NCBI GenBank assembly: GCA_964456455.1
Contig: CAYVZT010000002.1
Coordinates: 1-35,422 of the forward strand
Reading direction: 5' to 3'
Source: an uncultured Candidatus Peribacteria bacterium
GTDB taxonomy: Bacteria; Patescibacteriota; Gracilibacteria; BD1-5; JAGOOR01
Length of the DNA stretch: 35,422 nucleotides
In this document: one piece after another, positions 2,100 through 30,769 of the stretch
Numbering within the stretch: position 1 is the stretch's first letter
Layout of the letters: every line of letters begins with the position of its first letter
Translations under genes and position numbers: made by a program
Notes under the pieces: generated by a model
What the model was told of the DNA's origin: nothing
Database searches by the model: none
Seen by the model: only the letters and a program-made list of their open reading frames with translations

Positions 2100-3239
2100 C
2101 TAGTGCTCTATGAGGACATACTGGTGATCGAATCGTTCGACCATTTCTTTCCAGAGTTTCCAGGAGATTTTGAGTTCTTTTTGTATACTGAGGCATTCGA
2201 GCTTTTTTAGACTCACCATGACATCAGCCTTTTTCTCCTGGAGGAGGTCACGATAGATCTGGAGCTGTCTGTGGAGCTCATCGACCTTTCTCTCAAATTC
2301 GCTTGCTACATGCTCAAATCTGGCTGCTATATTCTCTCTCATCGGCATATCTGGTAATTTTTCTCGGAGTGTTTCTATGATCATCTTGAGGTCTTTTTGC
2401 ATGAGATTGGAACGAATCACGAGACCATCTTTACTCCTGAGATTCTTGGCGAGGTGGAGCTTTTCGAGCATCCAGATCAGCCATTTCGTCGGGTCAAAGT
2501 GATACCACGAAATACCATTTCGATAATCATTTGGAAAGGCATGGTGATAGTTATGATATCCTTCTCCGAAAGTAAAAAATGCGAGGATAAAATTATCAAC
2601 CGCTGTGAGCTCTTTGGCATAAGTCTTTGATCCCCATGTATGAGCGAGAGAGTTGATAAAAAACATAGAATGATGAAACACAAACATCCAGGCCAAAAGG
2701 CACAGATACATACTTGATTTCCAATCAGTCAAATAAGCCATGAAAAATACAATCAAAATATTTATATTTATAGCTATTTGGTGGTAATATTTATGCTGAA
2801 TTCGTACCCATTTACTCGCCCAGAGATCAGGGATTTTTGCCGGATCCATAGCAGGACGCCTCAGGAGAAACCATCCCATATGGGCGAAGAAAAATCATCG
2901 CTTGATACTATAGGGATCTTCCATGGTATCTGTTTTGGCATGGTGTATACGGTGATCGTACGACCATGTCGCAGCAGAGCCAGCAAATCAGAGACAGCCG
3001 AGAAGGAGATATATGATTTCTATAACTGGATGTGCTTGGTATGTACGGTGTGAGAAGAACCTATGATATCCAGCTGTGATAGCTATAGCAGCAATAGTGT
3101 AGAGGAAACAACCGACAAAAAACGCTGTCCAACTCCAGGCACTAGAGAAGAAATATATGGGTGTCATGATGAGAAATCATCCATGCATGACGAGGATAAA
3201 TCCTATACTAGTCCAGTCATAACGAGAAACTGTTTTCAT
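2100..3239 (-). CDS. Acyl-CoA/acyl-lipid delta-9-type fatty acid desaturase with a C-terminal helical extension
   Basis: Three His boxes are present: HRFFSH, HRIHHAKTD and HNYHHAFPNDY. The N-terminal third is recovered only by reading three TGAs as Gly, for example KR-G-FFFAHMGW at 2895-2897. Ends in TAG. Confidence 0.85.
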
Positions 3240-8109: not shown

Positions 8110-9252
8110 ATGAGCAATCAAATCATCATTCTCTCCGAAAAATTTGAAGCACCAAAGTCAAAAATTCAAAAAACATGGTGGGAAGCTATCAATGATGCTA
8201 TTTTGACGAACCAAAAAGTACGACTCAAGGATAAAGTCACTTTTTACCGACTCCTCGCCACGATGGTGAATGCAGGTCTCACTGTCCTCCAAGCCCTGAA
8301 AGTCCTCCGTGATGAACAAAAAAATCCTGTCATGAAAAAAGTGCAGGATGCCATGATACAAGATATTCACTCTGGTCATAATCTCTCTGCAACACTTAAG
8401 ATGTTTCCAAAAAGCTTTTCTGATTCAGAAATAGCGATGATAGAATCGGGTGAAAAAACTGGCAAGCTCAATGTCGCCCTCCTCCAGCTCGCCGTACAAA
8501 TAGAAAAACTCTCTTCTCTTTCAAAGAAACTCATCGGAGCTCTCATATATCCAGCTCTTATCATCTGTGTCATGGTTGGTGTGGTATTTGTACTCATGTG
8601 GCAAGTGGTACCAAAATTGATTGGTATTTTCGCAGATTTTGGAGGCCTTCCCCCAGCGACTCAGATGCTTGTAGCAGCGAGTAATTTTGTCCAAAATTTC
8701 TGGTATCTCTTTTTTATACTTCCTTTTGCTCTCATCAGTTCATGGACAGCATGGAGAAAAACAGAACACGGACGGTATATGACGGATAAATTTCTCCTCA
8801 TGATACCTGGTGTCGGTACACTGTTACAAAAAATCATCGTCTCTCGTTTTGCTCGACTCCTCGCGAGTCTCATGAGTAGTGGAGTCTCTATCGTCGAAGC
8901 TCTCCGAATTATCTCGGGGGCAGTCGGAAATGAAGTGTATCGTCAGCGTATTCTCCTCCTCCGTGATGATGTCACTCGTGGTATCACGATGGGAAAATCC
9001 CTCGAAAACGACCCCCTCTTCCCTGATATGGTTACCCAGATGATCAAAGTAGGAGAAGAAACAGCCAAAATCGACCAAATCATCATCAAAGTAGCAGATT
9101 TTTACGATGAAGAAGTGGATGGTGCCGTGAGTTCCATCAATAAAATCATTGAACCCGTGATCATCGTCACCATGGCGGTATTTGTCGGCCTCATCGCCTA
9201 CGCTATCATGAGTCCTATCATGCAGCTCTCTGACGTGATTAGTCAGCAATAA
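8110..9252 (+). CDS. pilC: Type IV pilus platform protein PilC (GspF family)
   Basis: Two GspF-type repeats with three TM segments. Typical motifs: LATMVNAGLTVLQAL, FARLLASLMSSGVSIVEAL, MIKVGEETAKID. No internal TGA. Confidence 0.9.
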   Translation: MSNQIIILSEKFEAPKSKIQKTWWEAINDAILTNQKVRLKDKVTFYRLLATMVNAGLTVLQALKVLRDEQKNPVMKKVQDAMIQDIHSGHNLSATLKMFPKSFSDSEIAMIESGEKTGKLNVALLQLAVQIEKLSSLSKKLIGALIYPALIICVMVGVVFVLMWQVVPKLIGIFADFGGLPPATQMLVAASNFVQNFWYLFFILPFALISSWTAWRKTEHGRYMTDKFLLMIPGVGTLLQKIIVSRFARLLASLMSSGVSIVEALRIISGAVGNEVYRQRILLLRDDVTRGITMGKSLENDPLFPDMVTQMIKVGEETAKIDQIIIKVADFYDEEVDGAVSSINKIIEPVIIVTMAVFVGLIAYAIMSPIMQLSDVISQQ

Positions 9253-12200
9253 GCTCGTCTACTTCTTCTGCCCGACAGTACGCCACACGATGGTTAACAT
9301 AGGATACTGGAACTGGAGTAGCTCCGGTCTTTAATTTTTTGATAAATCGAGCTAAGAATTCATCATTAATATCAATTTCAGTCAGCCCTCTATCTCCGAA
9401 TGATTTTACTATTTCTGTCAAAATTTGGTCAACGCCAGATCCTGGGATAAACCCATCACGCTTACAACCATTCTTCATCACACCTTGCAAAATACCTTGA
9501 TCGGAAAGAGTTTTAATAACTCTCTGGCGCAGTATCTCTCGGCGCTCATGACCAACCTCACGATCACTGAAGCTGTCATAAGCATCACGTATTTTATCAA
9601 CTCCCGGTCTGACGACACCATGTTCTCAGTGAAAATGATACGTAGCTTCTCGGAGTAGAAGTGCAACATTACCCGACCCATGAGTTGATTGTGCCTGTCA
9701 CAATTCTGCTTCCAAATTATCTCGAGAGACATTTCGTATAATTAAAAATGTTCCATCTATTTTCTGAACAATAATTCGTGCTTTTTTGTTGCGCAAATCA
9801 CGCTTATAATCTCTTTTGAGTTTCACCAGGTCTTCTCTCGCACGAGTATCTTGATCAAGAGCAAAGAGTGTTCCGTCACCATTTTTCATGATGTTATAAA
9901 CAAAAGTGAGGAGTACATTTTCTATCCTTTGTCTTATTATTTGTCCATCTTTTTGAGGAGGATTATTCAGCCTGAATGAGACTACTGGCTGCAATGTCAG
10001 CACTGCTGACCAACCATTCATTTTGCTGAGAGTAACCGCCGTTGGAAAACCATTTTCATACCGTGCTGTAAAGAATCTATATCATGCTGTTTTACAAGTA
10101 GATGATAATCTCTCCATTTCAGCATTCCATTCAGCTTCACCATTTTTTCTTTTTTGTTTAAATGTATCAATTTTTTGATTAAGCGCCAACTTGAGATCTG
10201 CTGTATCGAGTGCTTCAGATAGAGAAAATCAGAGCGCAGTAAACTCCGCATCAATATCTTGAATTACTTTTTTAGCCGCCATTTCTTTTGCATCATCTTG
10301 TTCCTGTTTTACTCTGGCTCGTATCTTTTCTGCGAGAGCGATCATCATATCTTGAGCCTCTGGTTCAAGTACTCCAGATATGATCCCCGTATCAGTGATA
10401 GTCCATGATCTATGATGTGGTCGAACTTCGACTCATTCCTCATCCAATATCTGTAGTACAGATTGGATATGTTCATCTTCTAGGCGAATTGTGACAACAC
10501 CCTCAGTATATTCACCTTCTTGCTCATAGAATTCTTGGTGGTCTGAGAGTACCATGAGCGCAGTACTGAGACTTTGTGTTTCTTTATTTTTCTCTTCTTT
10601 TTCTTGATTTTCTTGACGCACTCTGACTCGTATTTCTTCTGCCAGAGACAGTATCACATCTCTCCCATTTTCTATTTCTGGAGTTATAGCCCCATCGTCG
10701 TCGACACTCCATTGTCTATGCTTTGGAAGTATTTTTGAAGCAGATGAAATATGTGACTCATCGAGCCGCAGAGTGACGACTCCATCCGCGTACACGCCTC
10801 TTGCTCGGTAAGCATCGCGATATGCACTCAATAGAGTAAGAGCAGCTTCCAGACTGGCTCTTTCTTTTTCTTCTTCGGTAGGCTCTGGCGCTCTAGATAC
10901 TGGCATCAGAGGCTCGGATGGCTTGTGCAAATAATTCGTTTCTAGAATAACTGTTTTTGTAGTTGTATTAATTTCGAATTCTCTCCCTTCTGGTGCAATA
11001 AAAGTCACTCTATAAACTATTTTTCCATTCTGCTGCAATGTTTCCTGTGGTACAGATATCATACCATCAGCTGGAAGTGGCATATTTTCATATATGAATG
11101 TATACTCTTTATCGCCAGGCATCTTGCGTGATACTGAGATGAGACTCCCCGCTGGATAACCAGTCATGAGAATCAACGAACAATCAATATACCCCGGCTG
11201 TTTCCTATCATGAAGTTCCAGTCCTACTAAAGTAGTATCGAGCTCAATTCTTTTTTCCAGATGAGCTGCTTTTATTCTTTCTTCCTCTAGTGTTCGAATA
11301 TCTTTAGGCGATAAAAATCGCCCCTCACATGCAGACGAAACACGTCCAGCAATACAACGACTGAGCTCAAGAACATAATTATTGAGTCTCTCGATCTCTT
11401 TTGCTTTATCAATTACCTTTATTCTATCATTCATTATATCAGTTATTCTGGCATTCACCTCAGCTCTTTTATTTTCCAAATCAGCATCTCCAAAGGTATT
11501 GAAATTTCGTGGCAATATATACTTTTCTACTTTTATTGCCCCATTCTGTGTTCCCTCTTCTTCTGATTGTAAGATAGAGGCCAGGTCATTCTCGTCAAAT
11601 AATTCTCTGAAAAATTTCCCTTCCACTGACAATGGTCGAGACGCTACATTTCTTCGCATTTCCTTATTTTCATCTAATAATCGTCGCCAAAGATAGAGAT
11701 ATGGTGTTGCAGTCAAAATATCCATCATCCCCCTATAGCAAGCGAGATGTGTGGCAGCAAGAAGTGATTTAAAAAAATCCATCTCATGTTGTCTTTTTGT
11801 TCTGTTAATTGTGACGAGATATTTCCGCAATGGGTCCTCACATTCCGGGATATCAAAAGTAACAAAATTTCACATAAATAACATAATCTCTGGCATATCT
11901 GTTGGCTGCAACTCAATCAAATAATAAAACAATGCACCCATTCCCTTGTCTTCCTTGTTTGGAGTCAATACTTGATCGATATGGGCATCGAGTTGTTCCT
12001 GTAGTCTGAGTGATTCAAAATACCCCGGAACAGCACTAGCGATCATTTTTTTTGTGTCCCATTTTCTTCTCGTGCCAATAAATCTTTTCTGCCTCACAAT
12101 TCCAGTACCTATTAATACATTATCTGGATGTGGGGTTATAAATGTACAGTAATAATTGGATGATAAAAATAAAAGATTTTGTGCATCTCTGCGTAGATTA

Positions 12201-12673
12201 TCGTGTACATCTGCAAAATCTACATCTTCAGTACTCTTGGCTGCCAAGAGGCGCTGAGTCAATGGAGTATTTCTCACAACTCATTTTTCGAGCATAAACA
12301 TCTGAAGCAGAAAGAACGGGAGAAATTTCCTTTTGTCATCAATCATTTCCTTCGAGATATGCATGATCATCCTCTCGAGATCAGGGCCATGTTCATCATA
12401 CATTTCCTGCATTTTTGAGCGTGCAAACTCAAACATCATTTTGTAATATGTAGCATAATCTCTATTACTGTTCAAGAGAAATTCCCCTTCCAACCCCTCG
12501 CAGTACGCATACAAATCATCAAAAAGTGTATCAAAAAGTTTTATCTTTTCTGGCTGAGAAATATGGGGGCTCTTTCTATAGGCATTGAGTCGGAGAACCT
12601 TTGGAATATCATCCAAGTTTATTTCCACTATTCTTTTACCTTCTTCTGATCTATTACTGGGCGCGTTTGACAT
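9239..12673 (-). CDS. Large hypothetical protein (1144 aa) with two tandem ~95-aa internal repeats
   Basis: Track ORFs 12281..12673, 11870..12277, 10433..11830, 9698..10021 and 9239..9490 all share one frame. Hand translation of the gaps finds only TGA (7 in total) and no TAA/TAG. ATG at 12673, TAA at 9239-9241. I recognise no family. Confidence 0.7.
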
Positions 12674-12766: not shown

Positions 12767-13879
12767 CTAAATCCGAGCAGGTACTTTTTTTCTACTTTTT
12801 TTACGCTTTATTGGATAAGGCCTTTTTGTAGCAAAAATATCTGCAATAGCTCATCGTGTATAGAGTTGCACAACACGTGTTCACGAGCGACCAATTATAG
12901 CAGAGAGCTTTCGCGCCTTGATAAGCTGATCTATCACTCACTTTGATGTTCAAAATACTTTTTCCCAACCCGTGGCTGTATCAACGAGATCTGTCGAGTT
13001 TTCTCTCATATCTGCTCATATCTCTACCCCGTTCGGATCAGTCTTTCCTGCAACAGGAAGCGCAAGCCAATCATCCAAAGATTGGATCACTATGTCTGCC
13101 ACACTCTTGGCTACAATGCCTTGCACTACTCACACAATTTGTGATTCAGAAAACACACTTTGAATCCTCTTATTGGCAACAAAAACTTGTCCAGCAGGTT
13201 CTGCTCCCGCCATATAGGTACGTAGTCACCCGTCACTCATTTGTAGATATTGAGCCCAGCTTGGTATAGTCCCTATTCTCTGTCCTCTATCACCTGTTAG
13301 GTTGGTCAAAACAGGGAGATCCAATGATGTCATTCAGAGAAGATGTTGAAAGGCACTCAGGCGATACACTCGCAAGAATTGCGGAACTCAGACATCAGGT
13401 CTATATTTTGCTATTCGTATCCCCTGTTTATGCTCCAATTCTAGAGCACATCGATCTACGCGAGGCCATGTAATCTCTCCATGCATATTCACAAATCATT
13501 GTCGAGTGATAAATTCTGCCCCGTCAATCACACAAACTTGACGAGCATCAAGCTCTGGAAGTTTTGCCTGTTTGTACAATTTGAGACATGTATCCACTAT
13601 ATCCTTCTCAGAATACAACTCTTGTGTTGGTCTATTGGAGGCATCAAATCATGCAAATTTTGGTAACTCTTTTCCATCTATTTCTCGCAAAAGACTGGTA
13701 TGTGGTATACCATACAATTGTGACCAACTATGAAGAGTAGCATACTGGATACCTTTTTGGTCAAGTGAAAATCCACCACCAGAATATGTGATTTCTCAAT
13801 TCCCTCCTTCTGCACCAGTAGTAGTTGATACCGATTCTGATGCATGTGAATTTAGGCCTGATTCTATCTCATGTAACAT
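12767..13879 (-). CDS. Hypothetical protein with four excisionase/MerR-like (HTH_17-like) repeats and a basic tail
   Basis: 370-codon frame that is open only under table 25 (12 TGAs by hand count, no TAA/TAG); every line was checked by reverse complement. The pattern x-W-x2-(L/V/M)-(Y/F/H)-G-(I/T/E)-x4-(L/V)...K-L...G...(L/V)-(Y/F) recurs four times, e.g. YATLHSWSQLYGIPHTSLLREIDGKELP and TATGWEKVFGTSKGVIDQLIKARKLSAIIG. C-terminus KRKKSRKKVPARI. Missing from the standard-code track. Confidence 0.65.
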
Positions 13880-13935: not shown

Positions 13936-14928
13936 TTAGCTCGAATGAGCAATCTGGATACCACCATTCTGCATAGCTCTCATCACCGAGAGATCATGAC
14001 CGTGTCCGGCTGCAAACACCATAACTGTCCCAACAAATCGAGCTCCACCCTGAAGCGGTATACCATAGGCACCGAGTTTATCGAGGACTTCATGCATGAG
14101 AAGCTCGATATTTATGCCTCGAAAATCATATTCAGAACGAGGGTTTTCGATGCCTTTTTTACCGATAGATACAGTTCTGCTTGAATCAATATTTACTATT
14201 CTTTGAAAGACCGGCAAAGTATCTAGTATTCTCATGAGTTTACGACGAAAACCATAACTCGGAGTACGAGCCCCAGCTATGTAGCGCTGGATGACTTCGT
14301 CATTGATTTTGACTCGTGCCCTCTGAGTACCGATAGCTCCTGGATATGATACCATGACATCGACGATAAGCTCATTTCACCCTTCATCAGGCAATAAAAT
14401 AGCATACGATCATCTCTTATTCTCAAACTCGATTCTTGTTGGCTCTGCAACTGTAAAAGTTTTTCTTTTTCCCACGACAGACGTCTGACTTGGTTGCATC
14501 AGAACATCAGCATATTGCTGAACACAGTCTATCTTAGTGGGGAGCGATACCGAACGAAATGGAAATACTGAACTTCGGAGAATAATGTCTGCATCGATAC
14601 CAAGGCCTGCCAGGAGACCAACAACGTGCTCTAATACCTGCACTCGAGTTCGTCCAACGAGAAGACCAATATTATTTTTTCAAGGACTTACCGCAGAAAT
14701 ATCCAGAACTGTATGCGACTCATCATTAACGCATATTCCCGGCTTTCATGGCTGAGAACATGGAGAAAATCAGAGCTCCAGTGGACGCCTCCAAAACGTC
14801 GTTTGTTCTTGAAATAAAGCAGATTGTTCGAGCATCCTCTCTAGAGCCATGTTTCTACCAGGTTGATTTGTATTATCAAAGATAGGTACTGGGCGCTCTG
14901 GTATGTCTGCGACAGGGGTTATTTTCAT
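13936..14928 (-). CDS. LpxC-fold (UDP-3-O-acyl-GlcNAc deacetylase-like) zinc deacetylase paralog 2
   Basis: Fragments 14410..14643 and 13936..14355 plus upstream sequence join across 5 TGAs. LpxC signature segments: RVQVLEHVVGLLAGLGIDADIIL (compare E. coli [21 protein letters not shown]), AGARTPSYGF (ARTFGF), MHEVLDKLGAYG (HKMLDAIGDL) and AAGHGHDL (KSGHALN). The ATG at 14928 overlaps the end of the upstream paralog; ATG 15018 is an alternative start. Confidence 0.7.
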
Positions 14929-15959
14929 GTGAGAGGTAATATGAGATGTTTCAGTGCTGCCATACGGAAAACATGATTTGTATTCTCAAGAATAATCTTT
15001 CACTGAAAACGAGCTCATGCAAAAAATACCAATACCTCTCCCAATAAATCCAACACATTATGATACAAATGCTCATTTCCCCCAGCTCGAAACTCGGCTC
15101 ACATCATTCCTATAATGTCCTCTGGTGTATGACGATACCGGGCTCTTATGTAGGTCTTGTGGGTCATACCTGAGGATCCGAGATTAAAAAACCATAAGAG
15201 CACCTGAAGAGCAATAGAAAGTGTCAATCTTATAGCGGGCTTTTTATGAGTAGATGAGAGACGCATCATGGCTCTGGCATGCAGAAATTGAGAAATTTCA
15301 TTTTCTCATATTTCAATCGGCATCGAGTTTGGGCAATTTGGCATATCAGGCTGGAGAGCAGACTCGACTCGCACACGAAATTCACTACATGGTTCTATCG
15401 TCATTTTTCTCATTATACCATATTTATCATCGAATAATTCAAAAGCATTTTGACGTGTCACTTCTATGACCCTTCTTGTCTCCTCTTTATCAGAACAGTG
15501 CGGAAGTATTTGCTGCACAAATCACTCAATACCTGGTCAAGTAACTGGAATCCAGTAGGTATTTTTTTTAAATCAAAAAAATGGAAAATGGCTCGATGTG
15601 AGCGGCCCCTTGCAAGATGCGCCGATTTGTATGGTTATACCATTATCCAATCCGATAGCTCTCAAAGCACCGCAGAGATGCTCAAGAAGAAAAATCTGAA
15701 AATCATGCTCTGGAGAACGTAAAACGAGCATTCTGCCGAGACCAGAATCCATTGCCTCAATATGGTTGATACTATACGGTACTTTGACTCATTCAACTTC
15801 GAAAAATATACCCGGCACATCACTCGGAATAATATCAAAATACGCATCTTGTGGAGCAGTAGGGTCAAATGGTCGCCCCCTTACAGTTACTTTCTGTTTT
15901 AGGATTCTTGATGGAGGATTGAGAGATACAGGCAGTGATAAACTTTCTGGTGTATGCAT
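14919..15959 (-). CDS. LpxC-fold zinc deacetylase paralog 1
   Basis: 346-codon frame open under table 25 (9 TGAs); it contains track ORF 15306..15518. Segments FLLEHLCGALRAIGLDNGITIQI, WIPVTGPGIEGFV (compare EIPIMDGSAAPFV), FLHARAMM, LYHNVLDLLGEV and NTNHVFR match the LpxC Zn-ligand and catalytic positions (E-H, H..D, H). TAA at 14919-14921. Confidence 0.75.
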
Positions 15960-16044: not shown

Positions 16045-16842
16045 ATGAGAAAAACCGTTATCGAAATGAAAAATGACTCTGGTGCACCATCTCAAATTCA
16101 AATCACTGGAACAAATATAAGTAATCTCGTATTTGCACAAGTTTGACTGGGTGAAGTTATAGAAGGACATCAATTTATCAGATCTCTCGAAAAAGAAACT
16201 GAAAAATGAACATTTAGCCTTGCAACCATGAATCATCCACTTCATGCACCTGGCAATATACGAACAGATAGCTCTGAATTCAAGTTAGCACTCTGTCGAG
16301 CATCAACACGACGAGCGTTGCAAAAAATTCTGTGAATTTCCGAAGTAAAAAAAGTAGTGTGAATAGGTTATAGTCTAGGATTCTGGTCTATTTTTCAAGC
16401 ATTGTGCACGATGGATAAAGACCCGAAAATAAAAGGCATTCTCGCCAAATCAGGTATTCATTCATATGAGAGAATCCTTCTCCGATTTTTAGGAAAATAT
16501 GGATACCCTCAAAATAAACCACAAGCATGGGCTCAACTATTTAAAGAATTTCAGATGGACGAAACAAGTTGAATATGACAGATGCCAGTCCTCCCAGATA
16601 ATCCTATACCAATGCATAGAAATTTCTTACGTTGAGCAAGAAATCTGAAAGAACAATCTTGATGTCCATATGATTTAGAATGTTGGCATGGAACATATGA
16701 TCACTGGTCTACACCGGAAGACATAACAACTCTCTCACCAAGAAAAATTCACACATTTGAATTATGACACAGCTTGCGACCAAATAGAGACATAAATCGC
16801 GCCATTTTTGCAGCAGCGGAAAAGATTTTTATAGCAGACTAA
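16045..16842 (+). CDS. Alpha/beta-fold hydrolase (esterase/lipase-like)
   Basis: 265-codon frame open only under table 25 (9 TGAs; checked codon by codon). Nucleophile elbow VV-G-IGYSLGF (GxSxG), acid region WHGTYDHW, catalytic His in FEL-G-HSL. TAA at 16840-16842. Missing from the standard-code track. Confidence 0.75.
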
Positions 16843-18860: not shown

Positions 18861-21521
18861 ATGGAATTTCCAAAGGTCTACACCCCCTCTGAATTTGAAT
18901 CCTCTCTTGCCAAAATGTGGGAAGAAAAAGGCCTCTACGCACCACAAAAATCTCGCACAGGGAAAACATTTTATATCCCTCTTCCTCCGCCAAATGTCAC
19001 GGGCGTACTCCATACTGGACACGCTCTCATGCTCGCTCTCCAGGATGTCATGACACGATATCACCGTATGAAGGGCGATGAAACACTCTGGGTGCCTGGG
19101 ACAGATCATGCAGGCATCGCCACACAAAATGTCGTTGCAAAAGCTTTGTCAAAAGATGGCATACGTCGTGAAGAACTCGGGCGCGAAAAATTCGTCGAAA
19201 AAATCTGGGAATGGAAAGAAACTTCTGACAAAACTATCACCGATCAGATGCGCATGATGGGAGCAAGTGTTTCGTGGGATCATGAGCGTTTTACTCTCGA
19301 TGAAGCAAATAATAAGCTCGTCACCGATACATTTATAAAGCTCTACAATGATGGAATCATCTACCGTGGAGAATACATGGTCAACTACTGTCCGAAAGAT
19401 AAAACCGTTATCTCAAAATCAGAAATCGAATACCGAGAAGAGGCAGGATTTTTGTATGAAATCGCATACTTTGTCTCTGGAGCTGACAAAGAACTCATCG
19501 TCGCGACTACTCGTCCTGAGACACTCCTCGCCGATCAGGCTATCGCTGTTCATCCAAAGGATAAACGCTACAAAAAACTCATCGGTAAAACGGCTATCCT
19601 CCCCATCGCAAACAGAAAAATCCCCATCATCGCTGACGAGATGGTCGATATGGATTTTGGTACTGGTGCGGTAAAGATCACTCCTGCACACGACCCAAAC
19701 GATTTTGAAACAGGCAAACGACACAATCTCCCCCTCGATTATCGTGTCCTCGATAACAATGGTGTGATGATGAAGCACACAGGTGACTTCGCAGGAAAAA
19801 AAGAGATGGAAGCACGTGAGATGATGATCGAGATGCTTCGTGCACGAGGCAATCTCATGAAGGTCACTCCTCACACATCTCAGGTTGGATACTCTGAGCG
19901 TGGTGGTGTCCGTGTACAGACTATCGTCTCGACACAGTGGTTCGTCGATAGCAAAAAACTCGCAGAAAAAGTCATGGCTGGTTGGGCAAAAAAAGAATTC
20001 GAGATTATCCCCTCTCGCTATGGTGAGATATTTGAAACCCTCATGAGCAATCTCCACGAATGGTGTATCAGTCGTCAGCTCTGGTGGGGTCATCAGATAC
20101 CAGCCTACTATGACAAAGAAGGGAATCTCCTCGGTGTCACAGATGATCCGAGCAAACTCATAAAAAAATATGGTGCAGAAAATGTCGTCCGCGATGAAGA
20201 TGTCCTCGATACTTGGTTCTCTTCCGCTCTCTGGCCTTTCTCTGTCCTCGACTGGACTTTTGACGAACCTGGGAAACTGTTTAAGAAATTTTATCCAGCA
20301 CAAGTCCTCGAAACTGGTCATGATATCCTCCTTTTTTGGGTCGTGAGGATGCTCCTCTTTGGGTATGGTCTCACAGGTCAGACACCATTTAAGACGGTGT
20401 ATCTCCATGGTCTCGTGACCGATGATCAGGGTAGGAAATTCTCCAAATCTCTCGGAAATGGTATCGATCCGATAGAAGTCATCAAACAGTATTCTGCCGA
20501 TGCGCTTCGATTGTCTCTCATCGTCGGAAATACTCCTGGGAATCCATTTCGATTTTCTCTCGACCTCGTAAAAAATAATCAGACATTTCTGAATAAGCTC
20601 TGGAATGTAGCACGATTTGTCTGGATGAATGTCGGAGGAGAAAAGAAAATCGAAGTCGATACTGATGTCTCAAAGCTCGAAAAAACACTCACGAAAAACT
20701 GGAGCAAACTCCTCGACTACGAGCGATGGATACTCACGAGACTCAAGAGAACAAATCTCGATGTGACTCGCGGTATGGAAGAATATGATTTCTCTATGAT
20801 GGGAGAAAAACTCATGTCATTTACTCGTGATGAATTCGCGGATTATGCTATCGAGTGTTTCAAGCTCTCAAAAGACGAATCAAAATATGGAAAAGAAGTC
20901 ATGATGTATACCCTCCTGACACTGCTCAAGCTCTGGCATCCCTATATCCCATTTGTCACCGAGGCACTCTCAGGCATCCTCGTACCAAAAAAGACGATTA
21001 TCGATGCCGAGTGGCCAGAGTGTCCGTTTGAGATCGATACAGAAAGTGAAGAACTGATCAAATCGGTCTTCGAAGTCGTGAAAACTATCCGCACTATCCG
21101 TGGAGATCGAAAGATTAAGCCAGGAGAAGCAGTCGGCGTCGTCATCTATGCGAATCCTCGTGATCGTGCTGTCCTCGAGCGAAATATCGCCCTCATCGCT
21201 GGTCTCGGAAAAGCGAGTGAAGTCGAGTTTACCCTCACAAAAGACGGTCTTTCTCGAGAAAAATACACCTATGGTATGGCTGGAGAAATCGAGGTCTTCG
21301 TCGATACGAGTGCTTGTAGCCATGACGATGATATCGAGCGTCTCGAAAAACTCATCGCAGAAAAAGAGGACTATGTACGAACTCTCGAAATAAAACTCAT
21401 GGATCCTACTTTCGTGAATAAAGCACCAGAAAATGTCATCCGTCTCACGCAAGAAAAGAAAGAAGTGACACTCCGACAAATCGAGAAGGCACGGGAGGAA
21501 TTAAAGCAGTATAAGGGATAG
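18861..21521 (+). CDS. valS: Valine--tRNA ligase
   Basis: 886-aa uninterrupted ORF. HIGH region PNVTGVLHTGHAL, KMSKS region KFSKSLGN, C-terminal coiled coil. No in-frame TGA. Confidence 0.97.
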   Translation: MEFPKVYTPSEFESSLAKMWEEKGLYAPQKSRTGKTFYIPLPPPNVTGVLHTGHALMLALQDVMTRYHRMKGDETLWVPGTDHAGIATQNVVAKALSKDGIRREELGREKFVEKIWEWKETSDKTITDQMRMMGASVSWDHERFTLDEANNKLVTDTFIKLYNDGIIYRGEYMVNYCPKDKTVISKSEIEYREEAGFLYEIAYFVSGADKELIVATTRPETLLADQAIAVHPKDKRYKKLIGKTAILPIANRKIPIIADEMVDMDFGTGAVKITPAHDPNDFETGKRHNLPLDYRVLDNNGVMMKHTGDFAGKKEMEAREMMIEMLRARGNLMKVTPHTSQVGYSERGGVRVQTIVSTQWFVDSKKLAEKVMAGWAKKEFEIIPSRYGEIFETLMSNLHEWCISRQLWWGHQIPAYYDKEGNLLGVTDDPSKLIKKYGAENVVRDEDVLDTWFSSALWPFSVLDWTFDEPGKLFKKFYPAQVLETGHDILLFWVVRMLLFGYGLTGQTPFKTVYLHGLVTDDQGRKFSKSLGNGIDPIEVIKQYSADALRLSLIVGNTPGNPFRFSLDLVKNNQTFLNKLWNVARFVWMNVGGEKKIEVDTDVSKLEKTLTKNWSKLLDYERWILTRLKRTNLDVTRGMEEYDFSMMGEKLMSFTRDEFADYAIECFKLSKDESKYGKEVMMYTLLTLLKLWHPYIPFVTEALSGILVPKKTIIDAEWPECPFEIDTESEELIKSVFEVVKTIRTIRGDRKIKPGEAVGVVIYANPRDRAVLERNIALIAGLGKASEVEFTLTKDGLSREKYTYGMAGEIEVFVDTSACSHDDDIERLEKLIAEKEDYVRTLEIKLMDPTFVNKAPENVIRLTQEKKEVTLRQIEKAREELKQYKG

Positions 21522-22542: not shown

Positions 22543-22929
22543 ATGTCCCAAACTCTTACCTTTTGTATCAATCTCCCTGAAGCACACAAAGCAATCGAAT
22601 GGTATAAAAATGTCTTTGGTGCTGTCGTCGAGATGCAACACGACGATGAAGCAAGCGGCAAACTCTATCATGCCAATCTCCGATTCGGTGAGACACTGAT
22701 ATTCTGCTGTGAAGAACTCTGTATTCCTGGAGTGAATAGTCCACGAACACTCGGTGGAGCACACATGTCTATCAGTATCGAGGTAGCAAACCCTGACGAA
22801 ATCTTCGCGAAAGCTCTCGAAGCTGGCGCAGAAGAAGTCTCTCCTGTCGCTGATCAGACATGGGGCATGCGTTCTGGCACCGTTCGTGACCCGTTTGGTT
22901 ACAAATGGAGCATTTTTAAGCCTCTGTAG
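22543..22929 (+). CDS. VOC (glyoxalase/bleomycin-resistance/PhnB-like) family protein
   Basis: 128 aa. PhnB-like pattern AIEWYKNVFGA...HANLRFGETLIF...VRDPFGYKWSI. Confidence 0.85.
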   Translation: MSQTLTFCINLPEAHKAIEWYKNVFGAVVEMQHDDEASGKLYHANLRFGETLIFCCEELCIPGVNSPRTLGGAHMSISIEVANPDEIFAKALEAGAEEVSPVADQTWGMRSGTVRDPFGYKWSIFKPL

Positions 22930-23782
22930 ATTTATTCTTGATGAGGCTCCATCTCTTTCTGACAGAACGAGATATATTTTTTTGTGGCCGGAATATGAGA
23001 ATGCGGAGAGTCATAGAAACCATCTGAGACAATTTCAATCATATTGTTTTTAGCTTTCATTGTGCCATGACGGTCGTTTCTCGGAAATCTATCCATGGAG
23101 AAGCTCATATACCATGCCTATCATCCCAAGCAAATCACTTCCATGTATGAGGCTTGAGACCTTTCCCAGCATAATGTAATATTTTTGGTGTTTGTCCTGG
23201 CTTTCTGCGCATGACATTGAGAGCTGGTGGTAATCTATAAAAGTTCTTTTTTATAACTGCCCTGAGAGCATCTTGATCACATAATCGAATATCTTCTCGG
23301 TGATTTCTGACCCAATCAAGGGCTTGCTGAAAAAGCCCGCTCTGTCGAATTTTGTCCAAGTCAATAATCATAATACCTGCATTGAGATGTTCTCCTCCTG
23401 TACCTGGTGCAGCCGCGATATCTTGGTCAAATTCTTGTACAGCATCCTCAGTAATATCTTCTAGCACGAGCACATCTGTATCGAGATACATAATTCTCTC
23501 TACTTCAGGGAACAATTGTGGGAAAAATAATCGTACATATGTTGCTCTTGTTAGATGAGCGGCTTCTGGCAGATCCGCGCACAATTCATGTGTATCAACA
23601 TGAGAAAATCCAAAAGTATGCGAACCTTTTTCATATTCCAGAATATCGTGCATGCGTTTTCGTACATCTTGTTGGATATTATCACACACAATATGCAGAT
23701 GTATAACCCGACTGACGGAGGTTCGAAAAAGAGAAATAGCTGCTATAAGCCCTATCTCTACGACGTTTTTATCAAATACCAT
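22916..23782 (-). CDS. Glycosyltransferase family 8 protein
   Basis: GT8 pattern: HLHIVCD, ATYVRLFFPQLFP, DxD in YLDTDVLVL, NAGIMIIDL, ILHYAGKGLKPH. Read-through of TGA 23135-23137 and three further TGAs extends the C-terminus to TAA 22916-22918. Confidence 0.8.
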
Positions 23783-23892
23783 TCAAAAATGTACTTTTTC
23801 TGAATTTGTGTTCATTTATAGCAATATATAAAATATTTAAAATATACAATTTTATCCTTGTTTTACGTCTCATTTTTGAGAAAATAGGATGT

Positions 23893-24603
23893 ATGATACC
23901 TATCATCTCCGAAATCCACTCCATGAGAAACCCTGAAAAAATAAAAATCTATCAGGGATTTTTCAAGACGAGCAAAGGAGAATATGGAGAAGGTGATGTA
24001 TTTCTCGGTCTCACAGTGCCTCAAACACGAGGACTCGTAAAAAAATATGCTCCTACAATGACGCTCGATGATGTCGATATACTCCTCGCAGATAAACATC
24101 ACGAAGTTCGTCTTGCTGGAGTCCTCATACTCGTCTATTTTGCACAGCAGAAAATATACCCACTAAAAGAATTAGCGCGATTTTATATGCAACACGTACC
24201 AGGTATCAATAACTGGGATCTGATTGATACTTCCAGTGAACACATTATCGGGCCTTATATCCAGCACGAACTCACCCACGAAGAGCGAGTTGATTTTATC
24301 ACGCAATGCATGGCAAGCTCCAACCTCTGGATCAATCGTATCATCGTCCTCGCATCCTTTCATCAGATCAAGCAAGGGAATGCGAAACTCACCATCTACA
24401 TCGCGGAAAGAATGCTCTCGCACAAGCACGACCTCATCCACAAAGCCATAGGCTGGATGCTTCGTGAAGTCGGTAAGCGTTGTTCTCTGGAAGAATTACG
24501 CGGTTTTCTCGACCAATATGCACGGGAAATGCCTCGTACTATGCTCCGTTATGCGATAGAAAAGATGAGTCCAGAGGAACGACAGAAATACATGAAAAAA
24601 TAA
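23893..24603 (+). CDS. DNA alkylation repair protein (AlkD/AlkC-like HEAT-repeat family)
   Basis: Family pattern FFKTSKGEYGEGDVFLGLTVPQTR, HHEVRLAGVLILV, NNWDLIDTS, NLWINRIIVLASF, IHKAIGWMLREVGKR. Likely start is ATG 23893. Confidence 0.85.
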   Translation: MIPIISEIHSMRNPEKIKIYQGFFKTSKGEYGEGDVFLGLTVPQTRGLVKKYAPTMTLDDVDILLADKHHEVRLAGVLILVYFAQQKIYPLKELARFYMQHVPGINNWDLIDTSSEHIIGPYIQHELTHEERVDFITQCMASSNLWINRIIVLASFHQIKQGNAKLTIYIAERMLSHKHDLIHKAIGWMLREVGKRCSLEELRGFLDQYAREMPRTMLRYAIEKMSPEERQKYMKK

Positions 24604-24628
24604 CACCTCCTCTGAGGTGTTATTTTTT
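24602..24628. terminator. Bidirectional intrinsic terminator between convergent genes
   Basis: Hairpin aacacctc/gaggtgtt with T6 downstream on the plus strand and an A-run upstream, which gives a T-run on the minus strand. Confidence 0.7.
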
Positions 24629-24645
24629 GAGATATGATGAAGATT

Positions 24646-24990
24646 TTAGGCTGGTACTTTATCTGTCACTTTTGAGAGACCAATCATATCAAATATATAC
24701 TGTGTTTTGGGATGGACACGCTTGAAGGATATGGTCTTCCCTGTTCGATGTGTACGAGCGATAAATTCTGTGAGATAGGCCAGTGTCGTCGAGTTGGTGT
24801 AGCTGAGTTTTGAGAAATCACAGTCAATATGCTTATAGTCGTGCTTTTTCTCTATAGTATGGGTGAGTTCTGCAAAAGCTTCGTCAGCATTGGTCTCATC
24901 GAGTTCACCGGCGATGATGAGCTCGAGCTTGTCGTGATATTGCTTTCGGACCTGAATTGTATATGGTGTATGAAAAGCATGTACTGACAT
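24646..24990 (-). CDS. STAS domain protein (anti-sigma-factor antagonist-like)
   Basis: 114 aa. SpoIIAA-like pattern LELIIAGELDETNADEAF...IDCDFSKLSYTNSTTLAYL...ISFKRVHPKTQYIFDMIGL. Confidence 0.8.
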   Translation of the reverse strand: MSVHAFHTPYTIQVRKQYHDKLELIIAGELDETNADEAFAELTHTIEKKHDYKHIDCDFSKLSYTNSTTLAYLTEFIARTHRTGKTISFKRVHPKTQYIFDMIGLSKVTDKVPA

Positions 24991-25047
24991 AAAGATGAAT
25001 CTAGGAAGTAAAACTTAACAAGCATATTATGAATTATATTTTACATT

Positions 25048-26058
25048 ATGTCAAGTTTTAATTTTAAGTATACTAAAATAGAGAGTATTGCTGATTTAGA
25101 AGGTATTTCAATGAACAAAGAAAGTTTCTGGCAATCCCCTCTCTGGGCTGAAATACTCATAAAAACAGGACAAGCAGAGGTTTTTCTCTGTGAAAATGGA
25201 GAAAATCGCGTATGTATCGAGCGAAGGGCTCTATGGAATGGGTATTCTGGTCTCTATATCCTCTGAGTAGAATCCTCTCTGATAACGAGAGAATTTGTGC
25301 TTTCTATCAAGCATATTACGGGCCCAAAGGACCTGTTTCTCCAGATAGAACCTCTGGAACACTGTGATAATCATGCCTTTCCTTTTGATCTTTTCCAGAA
25401 GAATCGTGCACCTTTTCGTCGTTTTATAGAACCTGTTACTGCTCTACTCAATCTGACTACTCCCGAAGAGGAACTAATGGCAAATTTTGCAGAAAAAGGA
25501 CGATACAATATCCGCCTCGCCACAAAGCGCTGAGTGACAACACGGTGGGTAAAATGATCAGATAGCTACGGTCAGAAGACCTATGCAGAGGCTTTTTTTG
25601 ATCTCTTGGATGAGACGACCAAGCGCGATGGTTTTGCTCATAATTCTCTTATCTATTACCAGCACTTCATACAGACACTTGAAGCACATCAAGCAGGATG
25701 ATTGCTCATAGCAGAAAAAGATGATGTACTGCATGCTGCAGGCATCTTTGCGTACTGGGGGGATGCGGGTATATATTATTATGGTGCATCTTCGAGCGAT
25801 ACCAATATCCGTCGTGATATGGCTACCTATCTCCTCCAGTGGGAGGCTATCCGCGAAGGAATAAGACGTAAGTGTACAATGTATGATTTTCTCGGTATAT
25901 CTGCGGATGGAAAAGGAAAACTCGCGGGTGTCACAGAATTTAAACTCCGATTCAATCCTGAGAAAAAATACTGGATGAGTGAACGAGTGATGATTTTGAA
26001 GCCTTTGACGCTCTTTTTACTTCAGTGCATGAGTCGCATCAGAAAATTGTTTCGCTAG
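25048..26058 (+). CDS. FemAB-family peptidoglycan interpeptide-bridge aminoacyltransferase
   Basis: Three same-frame fragments (25048.., 25297.., 25702..) join across 4 TGAs. Motifs FWQSPLWAE, KGRYNIRLATKR-G-V, IYYYGASS and YLLQWEAIREG..MYDFLGI. Confidence 0.85.
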
Positions 26059-26841
26059 ATGATACCTCTCGATGTCCTCGATGCGTTCTCCCTCCCGCAC
26101 AATGTTGTACCACTTCCTGGAGGTCAGGGAAATTCATGGAGGGCGGGAGATGCCGTCCTCAAGCCTCACGAATCTTCGTATGAGTGAATCTCTCATATGG
26201 TGAATCAACTGCATCCGCAAGAGTTTCGTATCTCGCATCATCATGCGACGAAAGATGGGCATTATACATACCGGGGCTGGTGATGTACGCATTTCGAGCC
26301 AGGAGAAGAGGTCACAGGAAGAATCTCGGAGAAATACCATATTGCCCGCGAACTTCATGACCTCTTTAGAAACATAGAAAAACCCGATGGGTGGCATCCG
26401 AGCGAATCTCCATGGTCACAAGCACACGAAATAGTCTGGTGAGAAAGAGAATTGCCAAAAAACATACATCCAGAAATATATGAAGTAATACAGGGCGTCA
26501 TAAAATTATTACAACCACTTTCTCTCCCAAACCAGATTATCCATGGTGATTTGTGTGGAAATATTCTCTTCCATGAGACACTTGCACCCGTGGTGATAGA
26601 TTTTTCTCTTGATTACCGTCCCCGAGAGTATGCTGAGGCAATACTCATCGCTGACTCTATTGCCTGGGAAAATGGAGGAAAAGAAGCATATTCCCTCCTC
26701 CCTCCAGATTCCAAGCAAGTACTTCTTCGTGCCTGCCTTTTTCGACTCCTCACAAAGGCACTTTTAAAACCTGAGGATTTGGAGAATTTTCGAGCACGAT
26801 GAAAAGGATATGTTGATATTATCCAACAGATAACAAACTAA
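26059..26841 (+). CDS. Phosphotransferase (APH/choline-kinase-like) family protein
   Basis: 260-codon frame with 4 TGAs. Brenner-type motif IIHGDLCGNILF followed by VVIDFS. The ATG abuts the Fem gene's TAG. Confidence 0.7.
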
Positions 26842-29530: not shown

Positions 29531-30769
29531 CTATCTACCAATCTGGTACATATTATAGAGCGCTTCGATCATTTCTTCCAGTGTATCAAAAAGCGTCTTT
29601 TGCTTGACTGTACGGAGTTCAGGAAGGGTATATTTTTCATCGAGAAGCATGGACCGCATCGTTTGCAATCCAGTGAGAATATTTTCATAAAAACCAGTCC
29701 TCCTGCCCGTGAGAAGTGGATTTTCAAAAGCGTCCGGCAATGGTTCAGCAAAGAGAACTCTTACTTTTCATTCTTGGCTATCTGTATACATCCTCTGTAT
29801 CTGATTATGGATATCGTGTGGTCGTTTTTTCGCATAAAACTTTGCCAAAAAAGGAAATTTATCGAGCCAATATGAGATGGCTTTTTCATTGCTCTCTGGT
29901 TCGAGATGTGGCCCATTATGATTTCAGAGCTTCACAATGTGGGATCCTCCCAACGTGCGAGCATAATCATACATGACTGGATCTGAGAAATAACCATCAA
30001 TCAGCTCTTCCTCCCCTACTTTTCTAATCGGTTCTGACCATCGAGGTATCGTCAGGGTCGCGGCCAGAGCTTTCTGAAATTCTTCTGGTGAAGCTCTATC
30101 AGATCGTATATATCGTGATTGAGGGTGTTCTCCTGTAGTCGTCGTCACGACATGAATAACAGGATTTTTCTTACCATCCGGCCTCGCCGTGTGATAATCG
30201 GGTGGAAGCACGGGTGTCTCATACCATTCTTGTGGGTTTTTTAGTTCTCTGCCCGTGAGGACACGAGAAAGGAGATCTTCTACCTGAAGAATATTTTCTA
30301 TTTTTTTACCGACAGCTTTCTCGAGAACATGCGTTACTTTCTTTGAAAAAAATCATATTATTTTTCTCACAGAAGCTGGTAGGACATCTACAGAACTAAT
30401 TAAATTCATCACATTTGGCACAATAGAAGCCGCCATGGTAGGAAAATGGATGGTTTCAGACGGGCCATGTTCGCGACAATAATCAACAATAGTGTTCTCG
30501 CCTGACATCCTCCCGAGAACAAAGCCCATACCAGCGAAAGAACCAGAAGAAGCAAAAATAATATGGTCAAAATCAGTCGGCTCAATACCTGCCTGGACGA
30601 GTGCTGCCATCATACCAATACTCGATGATGCGCGGTATTCTCCAGGATCGACGATGAGTATACGAGCTCATTCAGGACCCAGAGTATGGTCTTTTATACC
30701 TCTCAATACCTCATTTTTTATGAGGGGAGAAATTTTTTCTCATGTTTCTTGAAGTATATCAGGAGACAT
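29531..30769 (-). CDS. Patatin-like phospholipase domain protein (divergent motifs)
   Basis: Fragments 30353.., 29924.. and 29531.. plus the N-terminus share a frame and join across 5 TGAs; the gaps were hand-translated and contain no TAA/TAG. Patatin-like pattern ILIVDPGEYRASSSIGMMAALVQAGIEPTDFDHIIFASSGSFAG, and an Asp-dyad region ELIDGYFSDP. Confidence 0.7.

What the first reader, a model, noticed from the sequence alone, without database searches (positions are those of the whole stretch)
13936..15959. Two overlapping, TGA-rich LpxC-fold deacetylase paralogs in a lineage not expected to make lipid A
Both ORFs are invisible or fragmented in the standard-code track. Under table 25 each gives a ~330-346-aa protein with the diagnostic LpxC segments:
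- (V/L)LEH(V/L)xGxLxxxG(I/L)D, compare E. coli [16 protein letters not shown]
- an ARTFGF-like segment (AGARTPSYGF and HARAMM)
- H-x-V-L-D-x-L-G, compare HKMLDAIGDL
- the distal His (AAGHGHD and NTNHVF)

So the Zn ligands and the catalytic Glu/His appear to be retained in both. The genes overlap by 10 nt (ATGAAAATAA), which suggests translational coupling and possibly a heteromer.

LpxC is normally a single-copy, committed-step enzyme of lipid A synthesis in diderms. No other lpx gene is in this window, and code-25 CPR bacteria are generally described as lacking LPS biosynthesis. One speculative possibility is that a duplicated, divergent LpxC-like pair acts on host-derived acylated amino sugars or on another N-acetylated substrate. 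These lineages are thought to be epibionts or predators of other bacteria.
Basis: partly seen in the sequence, partly recalled or inferred. Interest (0 to 1): 0.8.

Follow-up and report, generated by a model that had tools for sequence, protein, structure and literature searches.

The report
Coupled LpxC-like enzyme pair, no lipid A
Two overlapping genes in a Gracilibacteria genome (where TGA codes for glycine) encode very divergent relatives of the lipid A enzyme LpxC that keep its zinc and catalytic residues but lack its UDP-binding lysines, and their rare families occur in tiny symbiotic bacteria and archaea that make no lipid A, so they probably cleave some other, unknown amide.

Summary
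Under code 25, window 14919-15959(-) encodes B (346 aa) and 13936-14928(-) encodes A (330 aa), overlapping by 10 nt. Both belong to the LpxC superfamily: subfamily profiles match canonical LpxC at 99.3-99.5% hhalign probability, and a confident AlphaFold model of B's ortholog matches only LpxC structures. E78, H79, H238, D242 and H265 (E. coli numbering) are invariant in 49 relatives. The diphosphate-binding lysines K239 and K262 are replaced in both, scores fall far below NCBI's LpxC cut-offs, and the window has no other lpx gene. A and B are not a recent duplication. B-like proteins form a separate clade (99% bootstrap) that also occurs in Nanoarchaeota (DPANN) MAGs, while A-like proteins sit nearer canonical LpxC. 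Only 77 relatives exist among 1.84 billion representative proteins. The B-to-A junction ATG-ARR-ATA-R is conserved in 11 contigs, and both genes are under purifying selection. Best reading: two co-expressed, active zinc amidohydrolases with a non-lipid-A substrate. The substrate and any heteromer are untested. This is a new variant of a known kind, of moderately high interest.

The parts
14919..15959 (-). Gene B (upstream): 346-aa B-like LpxC-superfamily protein, 9 TGA(Gly) codons
   Evidence: Code-25 ORF. Pfam LpxC 25.9 bits, E 8e-6. B-like profile vs canonical LpxC: hhalign 99.3%, E 4e-20. AF2 model of the 96%-identical ortholog: pLDDT 89.5; all top PDB hits are LpxC, E ~1e-16. dN/dS 0.1-0.4.
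13936..14928 (-). Gene A (downstream): 330-aa A-like LpxC-superfamily protein, 5 TGA(Gly) codons
   Evidence: Code-25 ORF. Pfam LpxC 40.1 bits, above the cut-off of 27. A-like profile vs canonical LpxC: hhalign 99.5%, E 1e-22. The ortholog P0001 is named LpxC by NCBI. dN/dS 0.12-0.31.
14919..14928 (-). 10-nt stop/start overlap ATGAAAATAA. B's frame reads TGA(Gly)-AAA-TAA(stop); A's frame reads ATG-AAA-ATA.
   Evidence: Sequence. The pattern ATG-ARR-ATA-R is conserved in 11 contigs from at least 7 lineages, including B orthologs at only ~41% identity.
15678..15683 (-). B codons E93-H94 (= E. coli E78 general base, H79 zinc ligand)
   Evidence: Invariant in 42/42 B-like sequences; coordinates.
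15036..15062 (-). B motif H300-N301-x-x-D304-x-x-x-E308 (= H238 Zn, K239 replaced by Asn, D242 Zn, D246 replaced by an invariant Glu)
14973..14984 (-). B N326...H329 (= K262 replaced by Asn; H265 general acid retained)
15261..15275 (-). B motif R229-A230-M-M-R233 (= R190-T191-F-G-F194): the oxyanion Thr is replaced (Ala here, Pro in most B-like proteins), and there is a B-specific, nearly invariant Arg
15183..15239 (-). B residues 241-259: long hydrophobic helix in an enlarged Insert-II-like region (the region that forms the acyl-chain tunnel in LpxC)
   Evidence: AF2 secondary structure H241-259, pLDDT ~75. Kyte-Doolittle 19-residue maximum 1.65 at residue 242. Orthologs L001, L003 and L005 carry a 12-residue deletion here.
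14626..14631 (-). A codons E100-H101 (= E78, H79)
   Evidence: Invariant in 10/10 A-like sequences; coordinates.
14263..14265 (-). A T222 in ARTPSYGF (= T191 oxyanion Thr, retained)
14068..14094 (-). A motif H279-E280-x-x-D283-x-x-x-A287 (= H238 Zn, K239 replaced by Glu, D242 Zn, D246 replaced by Ala)
13993..14013 (-). A A306...H309-G-H-D312 (= K262 replaced by Ala; H265 retained; A-specific invariant Asp three residues later)
14473..14868 (-). Recombination tract inside A (aa 21-152, N-terminal domain) relative to the sister strain L007
   Evidence: ~55% aa identity in the tract against ~96% in the flanks. Tract dS 2.3 and dN/dS 0.16; flank dS 0.07.

Best explanation
Genes B and A encode two distinct, catalytically competent zinc-dependent amidohydrolases of the LpxC fold. 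They are made together from one transcript by termination-reinitiation at a conserved stop/start overlap. Each would use the LpxC mechanism: a water bound to a His-His-Asp zinc site, activated by the adjacent Glu, attacks an amide carbonyl, and the distal His acts as general acid. Their substrate is not the lipid A precursor UDP-3-O-acyl-GlcNAc. More likely it is another N-acetylated or N-acylated compound, plausibly a lipid- or glycan-linked amino sugar, used in envelope building or scavenging by ultra-small, host-dependent cells. In this Gracilibacteria clade the two enzymes act together, either as a complex or in consecutive steps. Shown: the fold, homology, residue conservation, purifying selection, coupling architecture and rarity. 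Inferred: activity, the change of substrate and the joint action.
For: Homology and fold: hhalign 99.5% (A-like) and 99.3% (B-like) against canonical LpxC, across both domains. The AF2 model of B's ortholog was built from a B-like-only MSA without templates (pLDDT 89.5, pTM 0.90) and matches only LpxC structures at TM 0.71-0.80 and 14-16% identity. Active site: E78, H79, E234, H238, D242 and H265 are the only invariant columns besides Met1 and one Pro in 49 A-like and B-like sequences. Selection: dN/dS 0.1-0.4 in both genes. Not canonical LpxC: NCBIfam LpxC equivalog scores are 16-21 bits against a cut-off of 465. K239 becomes Glu in A and Asn/Thr in B; K262 becomes Ala in A and Asn in B. No lpxA, lpxD, lpxB, lpxH, lpxK or kdtA is in the window. 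Gracilibacteria are reported to lack lipid A and an outer membrane (PMC6851277). B-like members occur in Nanoarchaeota MAGs, one on a 198-kb contig and one next to an archaeal-type CMP kinase. Coupling: the junction ATG-ARR-ATA-R is conserved in 11 contigs although dS is saturated between most pairs of lineages. Location: no signal peptide or clear membrane span.
Against: No biochemical data exist. The substrate is unknown, and gene neighbourhood gives no pathway clue: the M24 peptidase, a large unknown protein and the type IV pilus genes are simply syntenic among close relatives. B-like genes stand alone in another recoded lineage, so a heteromer is not obligatory for B. Canonical LpxC is a monomer (my own knowledge). 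The residue mapping of K143, F161 and D197 is uncertain because those regions align poorly. A retains an aromatic residue at the uracil-stacking position, so some nucleotide binding is not excluded. The AF2 model of A was poor (pLDDT 54). The whole genome could not be searched for lpx genes.
Confidence: 0.6

Rival explanations
1. One or both are genuine LpxC enzymes making a lipid A-like glycolipid, with the rest of the Raetz pathway encoded elsewhere in the genome.
For: Pfam LpxC is the only family hit. NCBI and JGI pipelines name several members LpxC. All catalytic residues are retained. A keeps T191 and an aromatic residue at the F161 position.
Against: Scores are 16-21 bits against an equivalog cut-off of 465. 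K239 and K262 are lost in both proteins. There are no lpx neighbours in 35 kb. A curated Gracilibacteria genome lacks the pathway and PilQ. B-like relatives occur in archaea.
Confidence: 0.07
2. The two enzymes are functionally independent. They are co-transcribed but have different substrates and no physical or pathway link, and the overlap is only compact-genome packing.
For: A and B come from different deep branches. B-like genes occur without an adjacent A-like gene in other lineages. Short overlaps are common in small genomes (my own knowledge).
Against: The exact 10-nt junction and the gene order are kept in at least 7 lineages whose synonymous sites are mostly saturated. Every contig that carries a Gracilibacteria-clade member and extends far enough shows both genes.
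Confidence: 0.2
3. One partner, most likely B, is a non-catalytic regulator or scaffold, and only the other hydrolyses substrate.
For: B lacks the oxyanion Thr191 (Ala here, Pro in most B-like proteins). Some B orthologs have an extra residue between the zinc-ligand His and Asp, giving HxxxxD.
Against: The zinc ligands, the Glu base, the His acid and a Glu at the D246 position are invariant in 42-44 B-like sequences across bacteria and archaea. Such conservation is not expected in a pseudoenzyme. B-like genes also exist alone.
Confidence: 0.08
4. The ORFs are artefacts of applying the wrong genetic code, or are decaying pseudogenes.
For: Both are broken by TGA under the standard code, and no tRNA in the window confirms the code.
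Against: TGA recoding lengthens ORFs across the whole window. TGA aligns with Gly in orthologs. dN/dS is well below 1. Full-length orthologs exist in many contigs. The AF2 model is confident.
Confidence: 0.01

Closest known systems
LpxC, UDP-3-O-acyl-N-acetylglucosamine deacetylase (EC 3.5.1.108; PF03331; e.g. E. coli 4MQY/4MDT, P. aeruginosa 2VES, A. aeolicus 1P42)
   Same: Same two-domain fold. Same zinc ligands H79, H238 and D242. Same Glu78/His265 acid-base pair and E234. Similar size and no signal peptide.
   Different: Only 14-17% identity. K239 and K262 are replaced in both proteins. T191 is lost in B and D246 is lost in A. B has an extra loop of ~20 residues after the EH helix and an enlarged Insert-II region. 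There is no lpx context. The hosts are reported or expected to lack lipid A (Gracilibacteria; archaea: my own knowledge). Two different members are genetically coupled, whereas LpxC is usually a single-copy monomer (my own knowledge).
LpxC-FabZ fusion proteins (NCBIfam NF009667 / PRK13188)
   Same: This is the best NCBIfam match for both proteins, through the LpxC half only.
   Different: Scores are 16-21 bits against a cut-off of 465. There is no FabZ domain, and the link to fatty-acid and lipid A synthesis is absent.
Metal-dependent de-N-acetylases of other folds (LmbE/PIG-L family such as MshB and BshB; CE4 polysaccharide deacetylases). This comparison rests on my own knowledge and was not tested here.
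   Same: The likely chemistry is the same: zinc-assisted hydrolysis of an N-acetyl or N-acyl amide on an amino sugar, outside lipid A synthesis.
   Different: The folds are unrelated, and neither A nor B shows any sequence or profile match to them.

Membership tests
LpxC superfamily / fold (PF03331) | Significant profile match to the family | tested here: met
   A: 40.1 bits, above the gathering cut-off of 27. B alone: 25.9 bits, just below it. Subfamily profiles against canonical LpxC: 99.5% (E 1e-22) for A-like and 99.3% (E 4e-20) for B-like. 36/44 B-like members hit PF03331 and no other family, apart from one marginal DUF7666 match in a single member.
LpxC superfamily / fold (PF03331) | Two-domain LpxC fold | tested here: met
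   B (ortholog P0004): AF2 pLDDT 89.5. The 50 listed PDB hits (54 with E <= 0.001) are all LpxC, at TM 0.69-0.80 normalised to the target. A (ortholog P0001): the model is poor (pLDDT 54) but still matches only LpxC at E ~1e-9, so the structural test is inconclusive for A on its own.
LpxC superfamily / fold (PF03331) | His-His-Asp zinc site plus Glu general base and His general acid | tested here: met
   A: H101, H279, D283, E100, H309. B: H94, H300, D304, E93, H329. All are invariant in 49 relatives.
Bona fide LpxC (EC 3.5.1.108, lipid A committed step) | Score above the curated equivalog cut-offs (TIGR00325, NF009666, NF009667) | tested here: not met
   16.5 bits (B) and 21.1 bits (A) against a cut-off of 465. 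A related B-like member scores 30.7 against 187.
Bona fide LpxC (EC 3.5.1.108, lipid A committed step) | UDP/diphosphate-binding lysines K239 and K262 (roles from my own knowledge of the LpxC product-complex structures) | tested here: not met
   A: E280 and A306. B: N301 and N326. Subfamily majorities are Glu/Ala for A-like and Thr/Asn for B-like.
Bona fide LpxC (EC 3.5.1.108, lipid A committed step) | Oxyanion Thr191 and Asp246, which orients His265 | tested here: inconclusive
   A keeps T222 but has A287 at the D246 position, with an invariant Asp312 nearby. B has A230 at the T191 position but an invariant Glu308 at D246.
Bona fide LpxC (EC 3.5.1.108, lipid A committed step) | Co-occurrence with lpxA, lpxD, lpxB, lpxK and kdtA, and a diderm envelope | tested here: inconclusive
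   None are found in the 35-kb window or in the syntenic loci. The whole genome could not be reached. The literature reports no lipid A pathway or outer membrane in a curated Gracilibacteria genome (PMC6851277).
Translationally coupled two-subunit enzyme | Conserved stop/start overlap and strict co-occurrence | tested here: met
   The junction is conserved in 11 contigs. Both genes are present wherever the contig allows within the Gracilibacteria clade.
Translationally coupled two-subunit enzyme | Physical A-B complex | not testable with these tools

The most novel reading that the evidence does not exclude
[quoted passage not shown] It strips N-acyl or N-acetyl groups from host-derived glycolipids or amino sugars, so that cells unable to make lipids or UDP-GlcNAc can recycle them.
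Probability: 0.2. Interest if true: 0.8.

Novelty: new variant of a known kind. Interest (0 to 1): 0.62.

Why it matters
LpxC is regarded as a hallmark of lipid A synthesis and is a major antibiotic target. Automated pipelines already label these proteins 'LpxC' in Gracilibacteria and even in Nanoarchaeota. That would wrongly imply LPS synthesis in organisms that lack it. The data show the LpxC fold has at least two further catalytically intact branches with changed substrate-binding residues. These branches are almost confined to host-dependent, ultra-small bacteria and archaea. This offers a concrete, testable entry into how such cells build or scavenge envelope components. It also warns against using PF03331 as a marker for diderm envelopes. 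In addition, the junction shows how TGA reassignment turns an ancestral ATGA stop/start overlap into a longer one.

Tried and rejected
**Genetic code and RNA genes**
- tRNA and Rfam scans of the window found nothing, so a tRNA-Gly(UCA) could not confirm the code.

**Public collection scans**
- Two scans of GTDB species genomes found no relatives. One search pattern included a TGA-encoded position, which weakens that scan.
- The first metagenome scan found nothing. An alignment of 23 sequences was too diverse to search with.
- The second metagenome scan gave two loci. One is identical to P0024; the other is an ordinary high-GC LpxC.
- A viral contig scan found nothing.

- The last word-indexed search returned only 12 proteins. 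P0090 and P0091 among them are ordinary LpxC.

**Weak or negative analyses**
- Profiles built only from close orthologs were too shallow: A against B gave 17% probability and E 1.4e-3, and A1 against PDB gave E 0.6. The broader subfamily profiles resolved this.
- The AF2 model of A was low-confidence.
- PADLOC and PHROGs gave no hits for A, B, g11 or g14.
- Promoter-like sites were no more frequent than in shuffled sequence and terminator-like sites only marginally more (5 vs 2.3 ± 1.5), with none convincingly placed for the pair.
- g14 has no meaningful PDB match.
- Literature searches found no description of LpxC-like proteins in CPR or DPANN.

**Rejected idea**
- A recent lineage-specific duplication is rejected by the tree.

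Full report
**Observation.** Translating the window with TGA as a sense codon lengthens ORFs throughout. On the minus strand it yields B (14919..15959, 346 aa, 9 TGA) and A (13936..14928, 330 aa, 5 TGA). They overlap by the 10 nt ATGAAAATAA. Under the standard code both genes break into fragments of 52-139 aa. Across orthologs, TGA aligns mainly with Gly and never with Trp. This fits code 25 and the closest genome, a Candidatus Gracilibacteria MAG (GCA_018000535.1, locus L001, syntenic). B is TGA-rich (2.6 per 100 codons against a window mean of 1.05), while A is average. The window has no tRNA or Rfam hit.

**Identity.** Pfam LpxC (PF03331) is the only family hit. A scores 40.1 bits, above the cut-off of 27. 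B scores 25.9 bits, just below it. NCBIfam LpxC equivalogs are missed by a wide margin, at 16-21 bits against a cut-off of 465.

Close homologs are very rare, with three clusters for each protein. An exhaustive HMMER search of 1.84 billion representative proteins with a joint A+B profile found only 77 hits. These sort cleanly into three groups:
- about 45 B-like clusters;
- about 9 A-like clusters;
- a few sequences nearer canonical LpxC.

With these wider subfamily alignments, profile-profile comparison is unambiguous:

| Comparison | hhalign probability | E-value |
|---|---|---|
| A-like vs canonical LpxC | 99.5% | 1e-22 |
| B-like vs canonical LpxC | 99.3% | 4e-20 |
| A-like vs B-like | 98.9% | 4e-17 |

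All three alignments span both domains.

B's ortholog P0004 is 96% identical to the window's B once its TGA positions, printed as Trp in the database entry, are read as Gly. Modelled with a B-like-only MSA and no templates, it gave pLDDT 89.5 and pTM 0.90. Foldseek returned only LpxC structures, at E ~1e-16, TM 0.69-0.80 and 14-16% identity. A's ortholog P0001 modelled poorly (pLDDT 54) but again matched only LpxC.

**Active site.** My recalled E. coli LpxC sequence was verified as identical to 4MQY chain A. In a 49-sequence A-like plus B-like alignment, the only invariant columns besides Met1 and one Pro are E78, H79, E234, H238, D242 and H265.

| E. coli residue | Role | Window A | Window B |
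|---|---|---|---|
| E78 | general base | E100 | E93 |
| H79 | zinc ligand | H101 | H94 |
| T191 | oxyanion | T222 (kept) | A230 (Pro in most B-like) |
| F194 | hydrophobic patch | Y225 | R233 (nearly invariant Arg in B-like) |
| H238 | zinc ligand | H279 | H300 |
| K239 | UDP/diphosphate binding | E280 (lost) | N301 (lost) |
| D242 | zinc ligand | D283 | D304 |
| D246 | orients H265 | A287 (lost) | E308 (invariant Glu) |
| K262 | diphosphate binding | A306 (lost) | N326 (lost) |
| H265 | general acid | H309 | H329 |

The roles of K239 and K262 rest on my own knowledge of LpxC product complexes. Their loss in both proteins points to a different substrate head group.

B also has an extra loop of about 20 residues after the EH helix. 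Its Insert-II region is enlarged and contains a hydrophobic helix at residues 241-259. Neither protein has a signal peptide.

**Evolution.** Both genes are under purifying selection, with dN/dS 0.1-0.4. An NJ tree (281 columns, 100 bootstraps) gives these results:
- B-like forms a clade with 99% support.
- A-like falls on the canonical-LpxC side of that same split.
- A+B as sister groups gets only 14% support.

So the pair is not a recent duplication. It is two old branches that became genetically linked.

B-like members include W-rich sequences, which are recoded lineages mistranslated with TGA as Trp, and ordinary-code sequences. Two ordinary-code members are NCBI entries from Nanoarchaeota MAGs: MFC1728274.1, on a 198-kb contig, and MEK6823130.1. 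The contig of the second also carries an archaeal-type CMP kinase (TIGR02173, above its cut-off). In another recoded lineage, B-like stands alone beside a DnaQ-like exonuclease and FtsH, with no A-like gene within 10 kb.

**Coupling.** Every Gracilibacteria-clade contig that reaches far enough has B followed by A. The junction ATG-ARR-ATA-R is conserved in 11 contigs, including L002, where B is only ~41% identical. In B's frame it reads TGA(Gly)-ARR-TAR. Under the standard code this would be the classic 4-nt ATGA stop/start overlap. By inference, the 10-nt overlap is that ancestral coupling site, lengthened by two codons when TGA became Gly.

**Context.** A Pfam sweep of the window genes found no lpx gene. 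The neighbours are:
- an M24 peptidase;
- two TGA-rich orphan genes, g14 and g11;
- a 1144-aa orphan protein;
- type IV pilus genes.

Envelope-related genes elsewhere in the window are FemAB, GT8, a Polysacc_synt_2 enzyme and a fatty-acid desaturase. Sieber et al. 2019 report that a curated Gracilibacteria genome has no lipid A pathway, no PilQ or outer membrane, and depends on external fatty acids and UDP-GlcNAc (PMC6851277). No paper in the library describes LpxC-like proteins in CPR or DPANN.

**Conclusion.** It is wrong about a lineage-specific duplication, and it remains untested on the heteromer and the substrate.

The most likely reading (confidence 0.6) is two co-expressed, active zinc amidohydrolases acting on a non-UDP N-acyl or N-acetyl substrate. 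They belong to two rare LpxC-superfamily branches found mostly in ultra-small, host-dependent bacteria and archaea.

Noticed in passing
window 14473..14868 (-), inside gene A: Compared with the sister strain L007, A is a mosaic. Residues 1-20 and 153-330 are ~96% identical, but residues 21-152 (the N-terminal domain) are only ~55% identical, with dS 2.3 and dN/dS 0.16. The adjacent gene B is 96% identical. This is a homologous recombination tract from a divergent allele, not diversifying selection.
   Followed up: yes
window 14919..14928 and junctions in L001-L009, L017, L021: The conserved 10-nt overlap contains ATGA. Under the standard code, B would stop at that TGA, giving a 4-nt overlap. 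TGA reassignment appears to have added two codons (Gly-Lys/Arg/Glu) to B's C-terminus in every lineage.
   Followed up: partly
whole window, e.g. 18861..21521 (+), 31875..32948 (-), 8110..9252 (+): TGA(Gly) use is bimodal. Conserved housekeeping genes have none: ValRS (886 codons), NusA, T2SSF, pilin, NifU and the DNA-alkylation repair gene. Lineage-specific genes (g4, g11, B, g14, g18, g35) use TGA for 33-50% of their Gly codons.
   Followed up: partly
window 16045..16842 (+) and 12767..13879 (-): Two TGA-rich orphan ORFs flank the pair: g14 (265 aa, with a GYSLG motif resembling a serine-hydrolase elbow) and g11 (370 aa). Both are present in the close relative L007 but absent from the syntenic loci L001, L003 and L017. 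Neither has a Pfam, PHROGs or PADLOC match, and g14 has no meaningful PDB match.
   Followed up: partly
window 9239..12673 (-): A 1144-aa protein with no Pfam domain sits between the pair and the type IV pilus genes T2SSF and T2SSE. A ~990-1010-aa ORF occupies the same position in L001.
   Followed up: no
window 2100..3239 (-) and 29531..30769 (-): A membrane fatty-acid desaturase (PF00487, 64 bits) and a weak patatin-like phospholipase hit, in a lineage described as unable to synthesise fatty acids. This is consistent with remodelling of scavenged lipids.
   Followed up: no
L010, L011, L013, L014 (gene at ~10001..10996 in L013): In a different TGA-recoded lineage (including GCA_964387665.1), the B-like gene is a singleton. 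It is conserved next to a DnaQ/RNase_H_2-like exonuclease, FtsH and a HAD hydrolase.
   Followed up: partly
proteins P0065, P0070, P0082, P0080: A further small group of LpxC-like proteins lies between canonical LpxC and the new branches. P0065, P0070 and P0082 keep K239 but have ARP instead of ART at the oxyanion position. Their origin is unknown.
   Followed up: no
protein P0060: An 858-aa protein built from ~14 near-identical 57-residue repeats matched a short stretch of the joint profile (E 1e-6). It is probably a spurious repeat-driven hit.
   Followed up: no
window 22916..26841: A cluster of a GT8 glycosyltransferase (-), a DNA-alkylation repair gene, a FemAB-family transferase and an APH-like kinase. 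GT8 is a family often involved in LPS core synthesis in diderms, but here it sits in a monoderm context.
   Followed up: no
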